Positions 145-5,193 of a stretch of DNA of 44,111 bases are shown piece by piece (positions within the stretch are counted from its first letter, which is position 1; the number at the start of each line of letters is the position of its first letter). Made by a program: the position numbers and the translations under genes. Source of the DNA: a virus; the IMG/VR virus record IMGVR_UViG_3300028892_001354; one strand, given 5' to 3'. The notes under the pieces are model-generated. The model worked only from the letters and a program-made list of their open reading frames with translations. It ran no database searches and was not told the DNA's origin.

Positions 145-555
145 CATAGCAAACAAAAAAGAGCACACATGTAAGTATGCTCTTTAACAAGAAAGGTAGA
201 TTTCTATGAATGGATGCCTCCATACAATAACATATGCTTGTCCAGTTAAAAGGTAAAAAGTTTTTAAAGAAATTATAATTTAAATAAAAGAAACCCCGTT
301 TATCTACGGGGCTTCTAAGGGTAAATGTCAAGTAATGACGTACTCGACTAATTAACCATATCATGAATTTATTGGTAAAAATACTGGTAAATGCGTCCAA
401 TTAGTATGGTCATCAACTTGAATAAAAAGGTTATTTTAGTTGTAGTTTAACAAAAAGGACCCGCTATAAATAGCAGGCCTTTTCCTAAAATGGCAAAGAG
501 TAACTCTTACCTTACTCTTCTACTATATAATACACCATATTTGACTGTTTGTGTA

Positions 556-570
556 GAAAAATGTCGAAAT
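556..570 (+). promoter_or_regulatory. 15-mer GAAAAATGTCGAAAT (copy 1), candidate promoter element
   Basis: Exact second copy at 2572..2586. Both sit at the start of rightward transcription units. Further ATGTCGA cores at 583, 1538 and 2770. Confidence 0.4.
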
Positions 571-659
571 ATGCAATATTTCATGTCGATTATAAGAAAA
601 CGAAGAAGTGAGACCGATAATTGAATAAAAACGCTATTTGGGTAGAAAAGGGGATGGAT

Positions 660-1591: not shown

Positions 1592-1915
1592 ATGAATGCT
1601 AAAGGTGTACGTATCAAAATTCTAAACTTGCAGGAACAACATTGTAAAAATTGTGAGTACCGGTATCAGCAACTAGATCATTGTCGTTTTGATTGCACCA
1701 TAGGAAAACAAATAATTGAACTAGGTGTGTTGTTAGGTGGCAAAGAAGAAGCCAAAAAACGAATAAGAAAGACAAAAGGGGAATGGGATAGGATTTGTGT
1801 GAAAGCTGCAGCTATGAGAGAAGACGGAATGACATATATATCTATAGCTAAATTCTTTGGTATGTCAGACGGAAAAAGAGTAGCAGAACAGCTGAGAAAA
1901 AGAGGGTTAATTTAA
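1592..1915 (+). CDS. Cys-rich (CxxC...C...C) N-terminal Zn-finger protein with a C-terminal HTH-like segment
   Basis: CKNCEYRYQQLDHCRFDC motif, then ...MTYISIAKFFGMSDGKRVAEQLRKRG. RBS AGAGGGTGAAG. Confidence 0.6.
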   Translation: MNAKGVRIKILNLQEQHCKNCEYRYQQLDHCRFDCTIGKQIIELGVLLGGKEEAKKRIRKTKGEWDRICVKAAAMREDGMTYISIAKFFGMSDGKRVAEQLRKRGLI

Positions 1916-1935
1916 AATTTCACATACCGTATTAA
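1915..1935 (+). promoter_or_regulatory. 21-bp motif AAATTTCACATACCGTATTAA (copy A), upstream of the sigma-like gene
   Basis: Exact reverse-complement copy at 31989..32009. Core ATAC-C-GTAT is palindromic. Confidence 0.5.
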
Positions 1936-2061
1936 AAAGATAAATAAAAATTAATGAAAATAATAGTCCACATTCAGAGGGCGTTGATTATGTGTAGGAA
2001 AGTGATTCTTCCTATATATAATTCAGCGTCCTCTTTTTATATAAGAGGAGGAACCTGGCTG

Positions 2062-2562
2062 ATGAAAAATTTAATGCAGCAGTATACAGATACAAGAAAG
2101 GAATTAGAAAAATCTAAGGTAGGTGCAACAGAAAAGGATATAAGTATTATCAATGGAATGATTAGTGATATTAATTATGCTCTGGAATGGATGCGTACTG
2201 CTAAACAGCCAGGGAAGACAAGAGGGATTGAACGTAGAGCGGCGTATGAACGCGAGAAGCCATGTGACCCATTATTAATGCAAAGATATGTGCGTAGTAC
2301 TGTAATGCCAGTATATGAATGGGATACAGCAGCAAAAGAAAGTGTTATCTCTGAATGGGACCGTACACAGTTAGAAGATGCATTATCGACTTTAACAGAT
2401 AGAGAAAAGGAAATATATGTAATGTCTAGAGGGCACGGGCTAACAATGGAAAAGATATCCAATTATTTAGAAGTGAAAAAAACTACTGTTCAAAATCATT
2501 TAGAAAGAGCGGATAAAAAGATTGGAAAAAGAATAAATGAAAGTCTCTTCTGCATGTTTTAA
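2062..2562 (+). CDS. Sigma-70 region-4-type late transcription activator (Xpf/ArpU-like positive control factor)
   Basis: C-terminal LTDREKEIYVMSRGHGLTMEKISNYLEVKKTTVQNHLERADKKI is a typical sigma region 4.2 HTH. RBS GGAGGAAC precedes the ATG at 2062. Sits just before the late genes. Confidence 0.7.
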   Translation: MKNLMQQYTDTRKELEKSKVGATEKDISIINGMISDINYALEWMRTAKQPGKTRGIERRAAYEREKPCDPLLMQRYVRSTVMPVYEWDTAAKESVISEWDRTQLEDALSTLTDREKEIYVMSRGHGLTMEKISNYLEVKKTTVQNHLERADKKIGKRINESLFCMF

Positions 2563-2571
2563 TTTTCCTGC

Positions 2572-2586
2572 GAAAAATGTCGAAAT
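2572..2586 (+). promoter_or_regulatory. 15-mer GAAAAATGTCGAAAT (copy 2), candidate promoter element
   Basis: Identical to 556..570. Lies 10 nt after the sigma-like gene stop, at the 5' edge of the structured non-coding locus. Confidence 0.4.
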
Positions 2587-3296
2587 TTGTGGTACAAATG
2601 CCCCCTATATATGACAGGTTTAAAATTAATAATGACATATTCCAGCGTGACGGGTGCAAGTTGCTCGCATTCGTCACGCTGTTTCTAATTTGTATCTATC
2701 ATCCATAATGTAATTATTCACCTTTTTATGTTATGGAAATGGATATAAATAAATCCATTTTTGTCCTGTATGTCGATTTCTAAGAATGGGGATGGTTTTC
2801 ATGATTGAATGAAAATTATTCTGGTACTTAAAAATTGCCAAAACTTGATTCTGCTGTATACGTTACCTGATGATCGTTCATATAGTAATTTCTCGCGATT
2901 CTTACTACATGGGCGTGTAGTCAGGGTGTAAAGAGACTAGTCACCTCTTTACTACAGCCAATATACATCCTGTCGTGTAATCCCCTTTTCACGATACGTC
3001 CCCTATATTGGTTGTAGTAAGGCGGTGGAAAAAGGTAATAACCGTCTTATAGATTATAAAGATTGATTCCCTTTATATTCGACAATATAAAAATGGTGTT
3101 TGTATCACCGACTCCACGGAGGATAAACGAGAAGATTCTTAGTCTTCTCTCAGTCACCGAACGTAAAGCGCGTAGCTAAAATACGGAAATACGAAAATGC
3201 GGTGACTGAGAGAAGGTTGAGAGTGATCTTGACCTTTGATTCACATGAACATATCCCCTTATGTTTAGAACGTGAATTTCTCCTACCCCCTTTTAG

Positions 3297-3325
3297 AGCT
3301 GTCACTTCGGTGATGGCTTTTTTGT
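3297..3325 (+). terminator. Rho-independent terminator (9-bp stem, UUCG tetraloop, T6 run)
   Basis: AGCTGTCAC-TTCG-GTGATGGCT followed by TTTTTTG. Confidence 0.8.
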
Positions 3326-3457
3326 TTGTTGTATAGAAATTACATATTAAACATACAAGTGAACCTTATATACCCATGTAATACATTAGCAGATGTGCAG
3401 TTATATAAGTATTGTGCAATTAGACAAATTGGACACCTAAAAAGAGAGGTGATTGTA

Positions 3458-3631
3458 ATGGGATGGTTAGATTTCTTTATTGGAAGTTGTGTAGGTTCAT
3501 TATCCGGAATAATATTCTGTTCTTGGTTAGAGAAGAGGAGCAAACGGGAACGAGATCTAGATATTGATAGATCAGTGCGAAAAGAAATGGAACAATTTAG
3601 AGCAATGGAAAGACGAAAAGGGGTGAAATGA
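3458..3631 (+). CDS. Small membrane protein (57 aa; one TM segment plus a charged tail)
   Basis: RBS AAAGAGAGGTG precedes the ATG at 3458. MGWLDFFIGSCVGSLSGIIFCSWL is hydrophobic. Confidence 0.6.
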   Translation: MGWLDFFIGSCVGSLSGIIFCSWLEKRSKRERDLDIDRSVRKEMEQFRAMERRKGVK

Positions 3632-3637
3632 TTAGAT

Positions 3638-3967
3638 ATGGATATACAGGAGTTTATTCGTGTTAATGGTATATGCATTGAAAACTGGGTATTTGATGTA
3701 ATTAAAGTAGTTGAAAAAGAACTACAAGCAAATAGCGGAAAAACGCTTTACATGGAAAAACAGAGAGAATTATTACAAAATATTGCTACAGAAGTTGTTA
3801 AAATTGGAACAGCAGTTAATATACCTTGGATTCAAAGTAGTGTTGGTAGTACAAGCAGCATAATGAATCAAATTAACAACTGTGGTCAATGTGGAAGTAT
3901 TGTTCCAAAACCGTATGGTAAATTTGAAATTGCTATTTGTAAGTGTGGAGAGCACTTCAAAGAATAA
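3638..3967 (+). CDS. Hypothetical protein with a C-terminal CxxC...CxC Zn-ribbon-like motif
   Basis: ORF with NNCGQCGS...ICKCGEHF. Tightly packed after the previous gene. Confidence 0.6.
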   Translation: MDIQEFIRVNGICIENWVFDVIKVVEKELQANSGKTLYMEKQRELLQNIATEVVKIGTAVNIPWIQSSVGSTSSIMNQINNCGQCGSIVPKPYGKFEIAICKCGEHFKE

Positions 3968-5159: not shown

Positions 5160-5193
5160 AAATAAATTAAGATATTATCGTGAGGTGGTGGTT

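What the first reader, a model, noticed from the sequence alone, without database searches (positions are those of the whole stretch)
2563..3325. ~760-nt ORF-free, highly structured + strand locus between the late sigma-like gene and the late genes: candidate large ncRNA or antitermination leader
**Structure seen in the sequence**
- No plausible ORF on either strand. The only one is a 64-aa antisense ORF overlapping the sigma gene end.
- Hairpin 2643-2681 has a 10-bp stem.
- Hairpin 2737-2760 is followed by TTTTTG.
- A 24-position helix pairs 2942-2965 with 3004-3027. It has 21 Watson-Crick pairs, 2 G.U pairs and 1 mismatch, and encloses hairpin 2971-2996.
- A perfect 16-bp helix pairs 3144-3159 with 3200-3215 around a 40-nt loop.
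- A composite hairpin lies at 3239-3277.
- A terminator with a UUCG tetraloop and T6 lies at 3297-3325.

**Evidence for selection at the RNA level**
- Every non-Watson-Crick pair I found in these helices except one is G.U on the + strand. These would be A.C clashes on the - strand, which argues for selection on a + strand RNA rather than on DNA cruciforms.
- The segment CTCTTTAC (2945-2952) can pair either with GTAAAGAG (2928-2935) or with the distal arm. This is a mutually exclusive fold typical of regulatory leaders.
- CCCC(C) runs occur five times: 2601, 2982, 3000, 3255 and 3286. By rough composition only ~0.6 would be expected in 760 nt.
- Where I could fold the RNA, these runs sit in loops or bulges. 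This is reminiscent of the C-rich anti-SD loops of RoxS/RsaE-type sRNAs.
- The exact 15-mer shared with the other rightward unit start (556-570) sits at the 5' edge.

**Hypotheses**
- A cis leader with serial terminators that requires antitermination for late gene expression.
- A stable large phage ncRNA of the ornate class seen in Firmicute prophages.
- A multi-site C-rich regulatory or sponge RNA.

I cannot place it in a known family from memory.
Basis: partly seen in the sequence, partly recalled or inferred. Interest (0 to 1): 0.8.

Follow-up and report, generated by a model that had tools for sequence, protein, structure and literature searches.

The report
Phage RNA carrying a RoxS-like tail
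This gene-free stretch encodes a roughly 730-base, heavily folded RNA found in many Bacillus cereus-group phages, and its last 90 bases resemble RsaE/RoxS, a small RNA that bacteria use to control central metabolism, so the phage may be copying a host regulator.

Summary

- **Family.** The locus belongs to a large unannotated family in B. cereus-group phages and phage-plasmids: 22 phage records, 165 plasmid records and more than 100 IMG/VR contigs. In 47 of 52 loci it lies just downstream of the ArpU or sigma-like late-regulator gene.
- **Structure.** In 16 full-length relatives, 97.7% of cells pair. 34 pairs show compensatory changes, against 16.2 in shuffles and 2-5 in slid controls. There are 341 G.U cells against 20 A.C cells, so selection acts on a + strand RNA.
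- **Not coding.** No small ORF is conserved.
- **Rfam.** No family reaches its gathering score. The 3' ~90 nt match RsaE/RoxS at 28 bits in the window and 47-52 bits (E about 1e-7) in relatives. Most relatives carry its signature UUUCUCCCAUCCCCUU.

Best reading: an independently transcribed, multi-site C-rich regulatory RNA with a RoxS-like 3' module. Its function is inferred, not shown. A read-through leader is less likely, because a conserved promoter-like motif follows the terminator in about half of relatives.

The parts
2557..2586 (+). Promoter-like element TTTTAA-17 nt-TCGAAA. It contains the 15-mer GAAAAATGTCGAAAT (2572-2586) that is shared with 556-570.
   Evidence: Exact 15-mer at only two sites. 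The 556 copy has the same geometry (TTGACT-17-TCGAAA, read). The relatives' motif TTGTAG-17-TCGAAT lies 16-37 nt after the terminator in 35 of 76 relatives. Promoter function is inferred.
2593..3325 (+). Whole inferred RNA, about 730 nt. The 5' end is inferred at the conserved GTACAA. The 3' end is the intrinsic terminator.
   Evidence: Fold z -9.7. 131 pairs are 97.7% kept in 16 relatives, 34 of them with compensatory changes. The + strand is favoured. No ORF is conserved.
2601..2605 (+). C-rich motif a (GCCCCCUAUAU), near the inferred 5' end.
   Evidence: The 9-mer CCCCTATAT recurs at 3000-3008 (read). This stretch belongs to the first ~110 nt of the finding, which BMBtp3-type phages share at 87.6% identity.
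2643..2681 (+). Conserved 17-bp 5' hairpin, rich in G.U pairs, followed by UUUCUAAUUU.
   Evidence: It lies in the best-conserved 5' segment of the family, 80-91% identity. 99.3% of cells pair, and 6 pairs are G.U in most sequences. Flagged as terminator-like in relatives L012 and L007 but not in the window.
2690..2748 (+). Compound hairpin: helix 2690-2698/2740-2748 enclosing helix 2703-2713/2726-2736.
   Evidence: 3 of 9 pairs and 7 of 11 pairs show compensatory changes.
2788..2812 (+). The only G-track (GGGGAUGG), followed by a small hairpin (2798-2801/2806-2809) that holds AUG AUU GAA UGA.
   Evidence: A G-track is present in 40 of 46 relatives. The hairpin co-varies. The 3-codon ORF is present in only 33 of 56. 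Pairing with the 3' C-rich region is weak.
2865..2927 (+). Helix 2865-2868/2924-2927 enclosing hairpin 2883-2888/2902-2907.
   Evidence: 100% of cells pair, with one compensatory pair in each helix.
2928..2952 (+). Alternative hairpin GUAAAGAG/CUCUUUAC. It cannot form at the same time as the base of the 24-bp helix.
   Evidence: 100% paired in 16 sequences. 3 pairs (16 cells) are compensatory. One of them involves position 2946, which is the mismatch in the long helix.
2941..3028 (+). Long helix 2941-2965/3004-3028 (24 pairs). Its cap is hairpin 2971-2996 with loop AAUCCCCUUUU (motif b, 2982-2985), followed by single-stranded GUCCCCUAU (motif c, 3000-3003).
   Evidence: 12 of 24 pairs are compensatory and 99.5% of cells pair. 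A helix of 23-29 bp enclosing 1-2 C-runs recurs across the family.
3111..3122 (+). Small hairpin CUCC-ACGG-GGAG.
   Evidence: Conserved, with one compensatory pair.
3144..3215 (+). Perfect 16-bp helix 3144-3159/3200-3215 with a 40-nt cap that contains a small co-varying hairpin.
   Evidence: In most relatives of the family a helix of about 17-32 bp ends about 90-125 nt from the 3' end.
3214..3235 (+). Hairpin GGUUGAGA-GUGA-UCUUGACC.
   Evidence: 4 of its 6 pairs show compensatory changes in 57 sequences.
3236..3323 (+). RsaE/RoxS-like module. It comprises hairpin 3239-3277 with a CCCC loop (motif d, 3255-3258), the single strand UUUCUCCUACCCCCUUUU (motif e, 3286-3290), and the terminator.
   Evidence: Rfam RF01820 gives 28.2 bits, E 0.025. 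Relatives score 52.4 bits (E 1.5e-7) and 47.4 bits (E 1.4e-6). The gathering score is 79.
3295..3325 (+). Intrinsic terminator: 11-bp stem, UUCG loop, U6.
   Evidence: Terminator scan. Family members found without selecting on this sequence have different stems that still pair.

Best explanation
The locus encodes a + strand, non-coding, highly structured RNA of about 730 nt.

**Transcription unit (inferred).** It probably starts near 2593, downstream of a phage-specific promoter-like element (TG-TCGAAA, 2578-2585). It ends at the intrinsic terminator at 3295-3325.

**Family.** It belongs to a modular family of 590-900 nt found in temperate siphophages and phage-plasmids of the Bacillus cereus group. 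The element always lies just downstream of the late-regulator gene (ArpU or sigma-like).

**Architecture.** The RNA is a chain of long hairpins that display four to five unpaired C-rich motifs with consensus (A/U)UCCCCUU. Its last ~90 nt are a diverged homologue of the Firmicute riboregulator RsaE/RoxS. They comprise a hairpin with a CCCC loop, a single-stranded CUCC-UA-CCCCC stretch and a terminator.

**Proposed mechanism (inferred, not shown).** The C-rich motifs pair with G-rich Shine-Dalgarno regions of host mRNAs, as RoxS does, or possibly of phage mRNAs. This would block translation and expose the mRNAs to RNases. The phage would thereby impose a RoxS-like programme on host central and redox metabolism during lytic growth.

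The two long helices (16-25 bp) that bracket the C-rich modules may be RNase III processing sites that release smaller C-rich RNAs. The conserved alternative hairpin at 2928-2952 may gate folding of the internal module. Both ideas are speculation.
For: **Shown**
- Strong fold: z -9.7.
- Covariation: 131 pairs in 16 relatives are 97.7% kept. 34 pairs have changes on both sides, against 16.2 +/- 2.2 in shuffles (0/500) and 2-5 in slid controls.
- Strand: 341 G.U cells against 20 A.C cells. Only 82.3% of cells would pair on the - strand.
- Not coding: window ORFs are not conserved.
- RsaE/RoxS is the top hit by bit score in the window (28.2 bits) and clearly significant in relatives (52.4 bits, E 1.5e-7; 47.4 bits). 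No other C-rich sRNA family was listed in those searches.
- The RsaE signature UUUCUCCCAUCCCCUU is nearly invariant in the family.
- C-runs are enriched. Across 56 elements there are 139 CCCC against 58 GGGG, mostly unpaired in the minimum-energy folds.
- 40 of 46 elements have CCCC in the cap of the long helix, and 43 of 46 have it in the 3' tail.
- Synteny with ArpU or the sigma-like gene holds in 47 of 52 loci.
- The unit has its own promoter-like motif and terminator, and a further promoter-like motif follows the terminator in 35 of 76 relatives.

**From the literature**
- RoxS/RsaE acts through C-rich regions on SD sequences. CRR2 and CRR3 are separated by two nucleotides (PMC4409812).
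Against: - No transcript data exist for this locus.
- The window's RsaE score (28 bits) is far below Rfam's gathering score of 79, and so are the relatives' scores.
- The window's CRR2 is degenerate (CUCC-UA instead of UCCC-AU), and the small hairpin before the terminator is missing.
- No sigma-A promoter or ResD-type promoter precedes the RsaE-like module, so it is not a stand-alone roxS gene.
- In most ArpU-type relatives the first hairpin loop is UUGCCAUUU, not C-rich.
- A scan of the phage's own translation-initiation regions gave no pairing better than shuffled C-rich probes.
- Host targets could not be examined.
- About 600 nt of conserved structure upstream of the RoxS-like tail has no explained role.
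Confidence: 0.5

Rival explanations
1. Cis-acting leader or attenuator of the late operon. Transcription starts at about 2593 and must pass the 5' hairpin with its U-rich tail and then the strong terminator at 3295-3325. A phage factor or the RNA itself would allow this, as with lambda PR'-tR'/Q or HK022 put. The structure would exist to control read-through into the packaging genes.
For: - The locus sits between the late regulator and the late genes on the same strand.
- The conserved 5' hairpin is flagged as terminator-like in relatives.
- The 3' terminator is strong.
- A conserved two-state fold exists.
- No canonical sigma-70-type promoter lies between the terminator and the first downstream ORF in the window.
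Against: - The motif TGTCGAA[AT], in a -35/-10-like geometry, lies 16-37 nt after the terminator in 35 of 76 relatives (background 0.008 per 150 nt). The same motif precedes the RNA in the window. This implies separate transcription units.
- The two-state fold is not at a terminator.
- The 2737-2760 'terminator' is not conserved.
- This model does not explain the RsaE homology or the conserved unpaired C-rich motifs.
- No known antitermination RNA matched in Rfam.
Confidence: 0.2
2. A structured RNA whose main job is not base-pairing regulation. It could be a long 3' UTR and processing region of the regulator operon, with RNase III sites that set mRNA stability. It could also be a protein-binding scaffold or sponge, or an anti-defence RNA. 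In these cases the RoxS-like tail would be an inherited terminator module.
For: - No terminator lies between the sigma-gene stop (2562) and 3295, so upstream transcripts would run through the locus.
- Four to five helices of 17-30 bp, typical double-stranded RNase substrates, are conserved family-wide.
- The most conserved piece is the 5' hairpin, not a C-rich motif.
- Some family members have lost CCCC runs, for example L043 with none.
Against: - C-rich motifs are retained in unpaired positions in most members, even where the surrounding sequence is replaced.
- The RsaE similarity extends beyond the terminator into the seed regions.
Confidence: 0.2
3. A DNA-level element, such as a pac/cos site, a replication origin or cruciform protein-binding sites.
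For: - There are many inverted repeats.
- The - strand also folds better than its shuffles (z -8.2).
Against: - 16% of paired cells are G.U on the + strand and would be A.C on the other strand. Only 82% of cells would pair on the - strand.
- Inverted repeats in double-stranded DNA would be strand-symmetric.
- terS begins about 1.9 kb downstream.
- In the phage records, which presumably start near the packaging genes, the element lies 2-3 kb from a record end.
Confidence: 0.03
4. A conserved micro-ORF explains the conservation, for example AUG AUU GAA UGA at 2801-2812, which sits behind the GGGGAUGG SD-like track.
For: The G-track followed by CATGRTTGARTGA is present in 33 of 56 elements.
Against: - It is absent from 23 of 56 elements.
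- The sequence forms a hairpin that co-varies (CUCA/UGAG, UCCA/UGGA, UUCA/UGAA), and some variants lose the AUG.
- It covers only 12 nt of about 730.
- All longer ORFs are broken in relatives.
Confidence: 0.03

Closest known systems
RsaE / RoxS (Rfam RF01820), the conserved Firmicute riboregulator of central and redox metabolism
   Same: - The 3' ~90 nt align end to end with the model.
- Shared features are a hairpin with a CCCC loop, a single-stranded C-rich stretch and a Rho-independent terminator.
- The single-stranded stretch reads UUUCUCCCAUCCCCUU in most relatives, identical to the family consensus.
- Scores are 28 bits in the window and 47-52 bits (E about 1e-7) in relatives.
   Different: - Scores are below the gathering score of 79.
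- The module is phage-borne, not at the chromosomal roxS locus.
- It has no promoter of its own and forms the tail of a 590-900 nt structured RNA.
- The window copy has a degenerate CRR2 and lacks the small hairpin before the terminator.
- Many relatives replace the CCCC loop with UUGCCAUUU.
Other multi-C-rich sRNAs of Firmicutes: FsrA and CsfG in B. subtilis, and from my own knowledge the LhrC family in Listeria, some copies of which are tandemly arranged
   Same: Several unpaired UCCC/CCCC seed motifs per RNA are predicted to pair with G-rich ribosome-binding sites. PMC4409812 notes this class for FsrA and CsfG.
   Different: - None of these families was listed in the Rfam E-value searches.
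- Those RNAs are about 100 nt each, not one 730-nt molecule.
Large structured RNAs associated with Firmicute phages and prophages (GOLLD, ROOL; from my own knowledge)
   Same: Size range, many co-varying helices, and phage or prophage location.
   Different: - No Rfam match at gathering score in the window or in 20 relatives.
- No adjacent tRNA genes.
- The architecture is a linear chain of long hairpins rather than a compact multi-junction fold.
Lambda PR'-tR' 6S leader with Q antitermination, and HK022 put RNA (from my own knowledge)
   Same: A short transcription unit that ends at a strong terminator and sits between the late-regulator gene and the late genes.
   Different: - Those leaders are 70-200 nt and carry no sRNA-like seed motifs.
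- Here a separate promoter-like motif follows the terminator in many relatives.
- The regulators here are activator or sigma-like proteins, not Q or N.
Prophage-encoded RNAs that interfere with host sRNA networks, such as the anti-sRNAs AgvB and AsxR of EHEC (from my own knowledge)
   Same: A phage-encoded non-coding RNA that plugs into a conserved host riboregulatory circuit.
   Different: Those RNAs mimic mRNA targets in order to sponge host sRNAs. This RNA resembles the host sRNA itself.

Membership tests
RsaE/RoxS (RF01820) | Covariance-model score at or above Rfam's gathering score (79 bits) | tested here: not met
   Window 3236-3323 scores 28.2 bits, E 0.025. The best relatives score 52.4 and 47.4 bits. 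The match is significant but below threshold.
RsaE/RoxS (RF01820) | 5' hairpin with a CCCC run in its apical loop (CRR1) | tested here: met
   Hairpin 3239-3277 has the loop UAUCCCCUUAU.
RsaE/RoxS (RF01820) | Single-stranded CRR2 (CCC) and CRR3 (CCCC) separated by two nucleotides (PMC4409812) | tested here: inconclusive
   The window has CUCC-UA-CCCCC: CRR3 is present and CRR2 is degenerate. Most relatives have the exact UCUCCCAUCCCCUU.
RsaE/RoxS (RF01820) | Rho-independent terminator at the 3' end | tested here: met
   3295-3320 plus U6.
RsaE/RoxS (RF01820) | Stand-alone gene of about 100-115 nt with its own conserved -35/extended -10 promoter and ResD site (PMC4409812) | tested here: not met
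   No sigma-70-like promoter lies on the + strand in 1900-3700. The module is continuous with co-varying upstream helices.
RsaE/RoxS (RF01820) | Represses TCA-cycle and redox mRNAs by SD pairing | not testable with these tools
   No host genome or expression data were available.
Known large phage-associated RNAs (GOLLD, ROOL, HEARO, OLE and similar) in Rfam 15 | Match to the family covariance model | tested here: not met
   No hits at gathering score in the window or in 20 relatives, apart from an unrelated RAGATH-18. No such family appeared in the E-value searches.
Cis antitermination or attenuation leader | Serial conserved terminators between the promoter and the regulated genes, with no independent promoter downstream | tested here: inconclusive
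   - The 3' terminator is conserved.
- The 5' hairpin is terminator-like in relatives.
- The 2737-2760 hairpin is not conserved.
- A promoter-like motif follows the terminator in 35 of 76 relatives, though not in the window itself.
Protein-coding or micro-ORF locus | Reading frame conserved among relatives | tested here: not met
   Six of the seven frames tested are interrupted by stops or frameshifts in relatives. The seventh (2640-2708) has few stops but is shifted by indels in most relatives. The 3-codon ORF is present in only 33 of 56 elements.

The most novel reading that the evidence does not exclude
A previously undescribed class of large (0.6-0.9 kb), modular phage RNAs. They would act as multi-headed mimics, or RNase III-processed precursors, of the host riboregulator RoxS/RsaE. 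Several C-rich seeds sit on long helical stalks, and a conserved conformational switch is present. Bacillus cereus-group temperate phages and phage-plasmids would use them to take over the host RoxS regulon (TCA cycle and redox balance) during lytic development.
Probability: 0.3. Interest if true: 0.85.

Novelty: new variant of a known kind. Interest (0 to 1): 0.72.

Why it matters
[quoted passage not shown] It controls central metabolism.
- A phage-borne copy embedded in a much larger structured RNA would be a clear case of a virus copying a core host riboregulator. I found no report of this in the searchable literature.
- The family is common in B. cereus, B. thuringiensis and B. anthracis-group phages and phage-plasmids, including the extrachromosomal prophage of the anthrax-like strain G9241. 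It is unannotated in almost all records examined (a few list hypothetical proteins there) and absent from Rfam.
- It offers a directly testable system: more than 100 natural variants, clear seed motifs, and a switch supported by covariation. It could show how phages reprogramme host metabolism post-transcriptionally and how large RNAs are assembled from modules.

Tried and rejected
- **Rfam at gathering score**, on the window and on 20 relatives: nothing relevant.
- **tRNA/tmRNA scan:** none.
- **Direct repeats within 2400-3500:** none in the locus, so the C-rich modules are not recent duplicates.
- **The search for related loci with the sigma-like protein in genome contigs:** As a result the B. 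cereus chromosomal roxS could not be fetched for comparison.
- **Conserved-ORF test:** negative.
- **Phage-internal target scan.** The best hit pairs the SD of the gene at 660 (GAAAAGGGGAU) with loop 2979-2989 at -23.9 kcal/mol. Shuffled C-rich probes reach the same energies, so I rejected it as evidence.
- **G-track (2788-2795) pairing with the 3' C-rich region.** RNAalifold predicts it, but there is no covariation and only a modest energy gain: -14.6 against -10.7 kcal/mol family-wide, and -11.6 against -9.7 in the window. It is left open.
- **Extension of the 16-bp helix to 3135-3140/3219-3224**. I rejected it in favour of hairpin 3214-3235, which co-varies in 57 sequences.
- **Apparent invariance of the terminator** in the first 57-sequence set. 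This was an artefact of having searched with that exact 20-mer. An independent search shows variable, compensating stems.
- **Literature searches** for a phage RoxS/RsaE, for ncRNAs in phage 0105phi7-2 and in pBFH_1, and in one of the Breaker-lab genome surveys: nothing.
Full report
**1. Checking the observation.**

- The 24-position helix 2942-2965/3004-3027 has 21 Watson-Crick pairs, 2 G.U pairs and 1 mismatch.
- The helix 3144-3159/3200-3215 is 16 perfect pairs.
- CCCC(C) runs lie at 2601, 2982, 3000, 3255 and 3286, against a single GGGG at 2788.
- The 15-mer GAAAAATGTCGAAAT occurs at 556 and 2572 only.
- The terminator scan finds one + strand terminator in 1900-3700, at 3295-3320 followed by T6.

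These features exceed chance.
- The + strand folds at -260 kcal/mol (z -9.7), against -206 kcal/mol for the - strand.
- There are five C-runs, against 1.73 +/- 1.09 in 5000 dinucleotide-preserving shuffles (33/5000). The density is 18-fold higher than in the rest of the window.

Three corrections apply.
- Hairpin 2643-2681 has 17 pairs, not 10.
- Several 31-51 aa ORFs exist on both strands.
- The 2737-2760 hairpin plus TTTTTG is specific to the window and one close relative.

**2. The locus belongs to a large, unannotated family.**

blastn found related DNA in 22 phage records, including BMBtp3, Waukesha92, phi4J1, phiS58, TP21-T, IEBH, phage 250 and 0105phi7-2. It also found 165 plasmid records, all from the B. 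cereus group. Almost every match lies under no annotated feature; a few records list hypothetical proteins there.

Seven annotated relatives show the same layout: an ArpU-family or sigma-like regulator gene, sometimes one small gene, then 0.6-1 kb without a gene, then small hypothetical genes.

An exact-pattern scan of IMG/VR returned 80 more loci. A second scan with a different pattern returned about 28 further members.

In 47 of 52 loci with enough upstream sequence, an ArpU (46) or sigma-like (1) gene lies upstream on the same strand. The median distance from gene end to terminator is 1039 nt.

In the window the flanking genes are as follows.
- Upstream: a RecU-type resolvase, a regulator (phrog_3910) and a sigma factor (Sigma70_r4_2; phrog_1190, E 1e-62).
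- Downstream: small ORFs, a serine recombinase, and terS at 5185.

The family is modular.
- The 5' hairpin (window 2627-2701) is conserved at 80-91% identity.
- The 3' domain (3107-3329) is conserved at about 75%.
- A middle section of about 400 nt is variable.
- Total lengths range from 587 to 900 nt.

Most ArpU-type members also carry an extra 5' domain of about 140 nt that the window lacks.

**3. It is an RNA, read from the + strand, and it does not code for protein.**

I aligned 16 full-length relatives (A2) and counted pairs on the RNAalifold structure.
- It has 131 pairs in 15 helices, and 97.7% of cells form standard pairs.
- 34 pairs have changes on both sides, against 16.2 +/- 2.2 in column shuffles (0/500) and 2-5 when partners are slid by 1-3 columns.
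- The 24-bp helix has 12 compensatory pairs.
- Helix 2703-2713/2726-2736 has 7 compensatory pairs out of 11.

In a 57-sequence alignment of the 3' domain, the 16-bp helix and the next hairpin (3214-3235) together have 9 compensatory pairs.

341 paired cells (16%) are G.U on the + strand, against 20 A.C cells. The same pairs read on the - strand would be only 82.3% paired.

Six of the seven ORF frames tested are broken by stops or frameshifts in relatives. The seventh, a short stretch at 2640-2708, has few stops but is shifted by indels in most relatives.

**4. The alternative fold is real.**

The hairpin GUAAAGAG/CUCUUUAC (2928-2935/2945-2952) competes with the base of the 24-bp helix.
- It is paired in 100% of cells in all 16 sequences.
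- Three of its pairs (16 cells) are compensatory.
- Position 2946 is the single mismatch in the long helix, yet it co-varies with 2934 in the alternative hairpin (A-U 9, G-C 7).
- Position 2945 co-varies with both of its possible partners.

A base that co-varies with two mutually exclusive partners is the signature of a conserved two-state fold. This could be a co-transcriptional folding intermediate or a regulated switch. What flips it is unknown.

**5. The 3' end is a RoxS/RsaE-like module.**

Rfam has no hit at gathering score. In the E-value search, the hit with the highest bit score is RsaE/RoxS (RF01820) at 3236-3323: 28.2 bits, E 0.025, full model length.

In relatives the same position scores 52.4 bits (E 1.5e-7, L051) and 47.4 bits (E 1.4e-6, L095, a 41,486-nt contig the same length as phage phi4J1). 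The family gathering score is 79.

The alignments share UCACA, ACAU, CCCCUU, GAACGUGAA and the 16-mer UUCUCCCAUCCCCUUU with the consensus. This goes well beyond mere C-richness. No other C-rich sRNA family was listed in these searches.

UUUCUCCCAUCCCCUU is nearly invariant across the family. This is the CRR2-two nucleotides-CRR3 arrangement described for RoxS (PMC4409812).

The window copy is more diverged.
- Its hairpin 3239-3277 keeps the CCCC loop.
- Its single strand reads UUUCUCCUACCCCCUUUU.
- The small hairpin before the terminator is deleted.

No promoter precedes the module, and it is continuous with co-varying upstream helices. It is therefore the tail of the long RNA, not a stand-alone roxS gene.

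**6. C-rich motifs are the recurring theme.**

Across 56 distinct elements there are 139 CCCC runs against 58 GGGG. Their consensus context is (A/U)UCCCCUU, and most are unpaired in the minimum-energy folds.

The cap of the long central helix contains CCCC in 40 of 46 elements where it could be anchored. This holds even though the cap sequence differs between subfamilies. The 3' tail contains CCCC in 43 of 46.

The cap repeats the RsaE arrangement: a hairpin with a C-rich loop followed by a single-stranded C-run. In some relatives it even reads CAUCCCCUUGAAAA.

Most family members share the following architecture.
- A 17-18 bp 5' hairpin.
- A 22-28 bp hairpin.
- A 23-29 bp helix carrying the internal C-rich module.
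- A helix of about 17-32 bp ending 90-125 nt from the 3' end.
- The RsaE-like tail.

One conserved G-track (AAUGGGG[A/G]UGG; window 2788-2795) is complementary to CCAUCCCC. Its pairing with the 3' motif has no covariation support and only modest energy.

**7. Transcription unit.**

The two copies of the 15-mer have the same geometry.
- TTGACT-17 nt-TCGAAA at 541-569.
- TTTTAA-17 nt-TCGAAA at 2557-2585.

In 35 of 76 distinct relatives, TGTCGAA[AT] lies 16-37 nt after the terminator stem. There it usually reads TTGTAG-17 nt-TCGAAT. The background rate of the motif is 0.008 per 150 nt.

I infer a phage-specific promoter type, because C at position -11 is not what sigma-A prefers. In the window it drives both the 556 operon and this RNA, with a start near 2592-2594 at the conserved GTACAA. 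In many relatives it drives the genes after the terminator.

Two consequences follow. The RNA appears to be its own transcription unit. The downstream genes, at least in those relatives, do not depend on reading through the terminator.

Against this, three points remain.
- Upstream transcription can also enter the locus, because no terminator lies between 2562 and 3295.
- The conserved 5' hairpin with its UUUCUAAUUU tail is flagged as terminator-like in two relatives.
- The window itself has a different conserved sequence after its terminator and no detectable sigma-70-type promoter there.

**8. Mechanism.**

| Status | Statement |
|---|---|
| Shown | A conserved + strand RNA structure; RsaE/RoxS-like 3' module; conserved unpaired C-rich motifs; a conserved two-state fold; synteny with the late regulator |
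| Inferred | The start site; independence from the downstream genes |
| Hypothesis | C-rich motifs pair with G-rich ribosome-binding sites of host (RoxS-regulon) or phage mRNAs, as RoxS/RsaE do |
| Speculation | The long helices are RNase III sites that release smaller C-rich RNAs |

I could not test host targets. A scan of the phage's own initiation regions was no better than shuffled probes.

The rivals are a late-operon leader or attenuator (0.2), a processing or scaffold RNA with an inherited tail (0.2), a DNA element (0.03) and a micro-ORF (0.03).

**9. Comparison with known families, and novelty.**

The module works like RsaE/RoxS and is probably homologous to it. It fails two membership tests, however: the gathering score and the stand-alone gene with its own promoter. 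I therefore do not file it as a member.

The long RNA matches no Rfam family, including the large phage-associated classes. Literature searches found no description of it or of any phage-encoded RsaE/RoxS.

I rate it a new variant of a known kind: a RoxS-type C-rich regulator carried inside a large, modular phage RNA. There is a real chance, about 0.3, that the whole molecule is a new class of multi-headed sRNA mimic or precursor.

Noticed in passing
window 541-570 and 2557-2586; relatives, 16-37 nt after the terminator (e.g. L011, L013, L026): A shared promoter-like geometry: TTGACT, TTTTAA or TTGTAG, then 17 nt, then TCGAA(A/T), always preceded by TG. TGTCGAA[AT] follows the terminator in 35 of 76 distinct relatives, against a background of 0.008 per 150 nt. 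It may be the late-type promoter recognised by the phage sigma-like or ArpU factor.
   Followed up: partly
relatives only, e.g. L012 about 1340-1500 and L007 about 1370-1505: Most ArpU-type family members carry an extra conserved 5' domain of about 140 nt (...GAAGAGGAUUAGUACACC...GGGCGGGCAAGGCGGUAAGAACCCGCG...) just upstream of the conserved 5' hairpin. The window lacks it. It has no Rfam match. CCCGC could pair either with the upstream GCGGG or with the hairpin's GCGGGU, which looks like a possible attenuator.
   Followed up: partly
L012:1513-1552 and L007:1519-1558 (window equivalent 2643-2681): The terminator scan flags the conserved 18-bp 5' hairpin with its UUUCUAAUUU tail as terminator-like in relatives. 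If it works as a terminator, a short 5' RNA carrying the first CCCCC motif (about 95 nt in the window) could be made as well as the full-length RNA.
   Followed up: partly
window 2788-2812: The only G-track (GGGGAUGG, identical to the SD of the gene at 660) sits 5 nt before AUG AUU GAA UGA. This looks like a decoy ribosome-binding site. The AUG lies in a small co-varying hairpin, and the 3-codon ORF is present in 33 of 56 relatives.
   Followed up: partly
window 647-657 versus 2979-2989: The ribosome-binding region of the first gene of the 556 operon (phrog_803, 'host nuclease inhibitor') is GAAAAGGGGAU. It is perfectly complementary over 11 nt to the loop AUCCCCUUUUC of the internal C-rich hairpin. 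The match is not better than shuffled controls.
   Followed up: partly
L051:3957-4066 and L095:10806-10916, minus strand: The Rfam 'ylbH leader' model (RF00516) hits the reverse strand of the RsaE-like module at 23.9 and 31.8 bits. From memory, that Bacillus motif overlaps roxS on the opposite strand, which would fit a Bacillus-type origin of the module.
   Followed up: no
L115 about 2300-2346: A family member in which the 5' arm of the long 3' helix (CUCUUCUCCCA) is joined directly to ...UCCCCUUUAAU. This looks like a deletion between the two UUCUCCCA copies. That arm and the C-rich motif share the same 8-mer, so the 3' arm (UGGAGAAG) could in principle also pair with the C-rich motif.
   Followed up: no
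L010:158-219: A RAGATH-18 RNA (75.4 bits) lies next to a TnpB gene inserted upstream of ArpU in a B. mycoides linear plasmid. It is unrelated to the finding.
   Followed up: no
window 1592-1915: A 107-aa Cys-rich protein (CxxC...CxxxC plus a C-terminal helix-turn-helix-like region; phrog_3910, 'transcriptional regulator') is encoded just upstream of the sigma-like gene. It is a second candidate late regulator.
   Followed up: no
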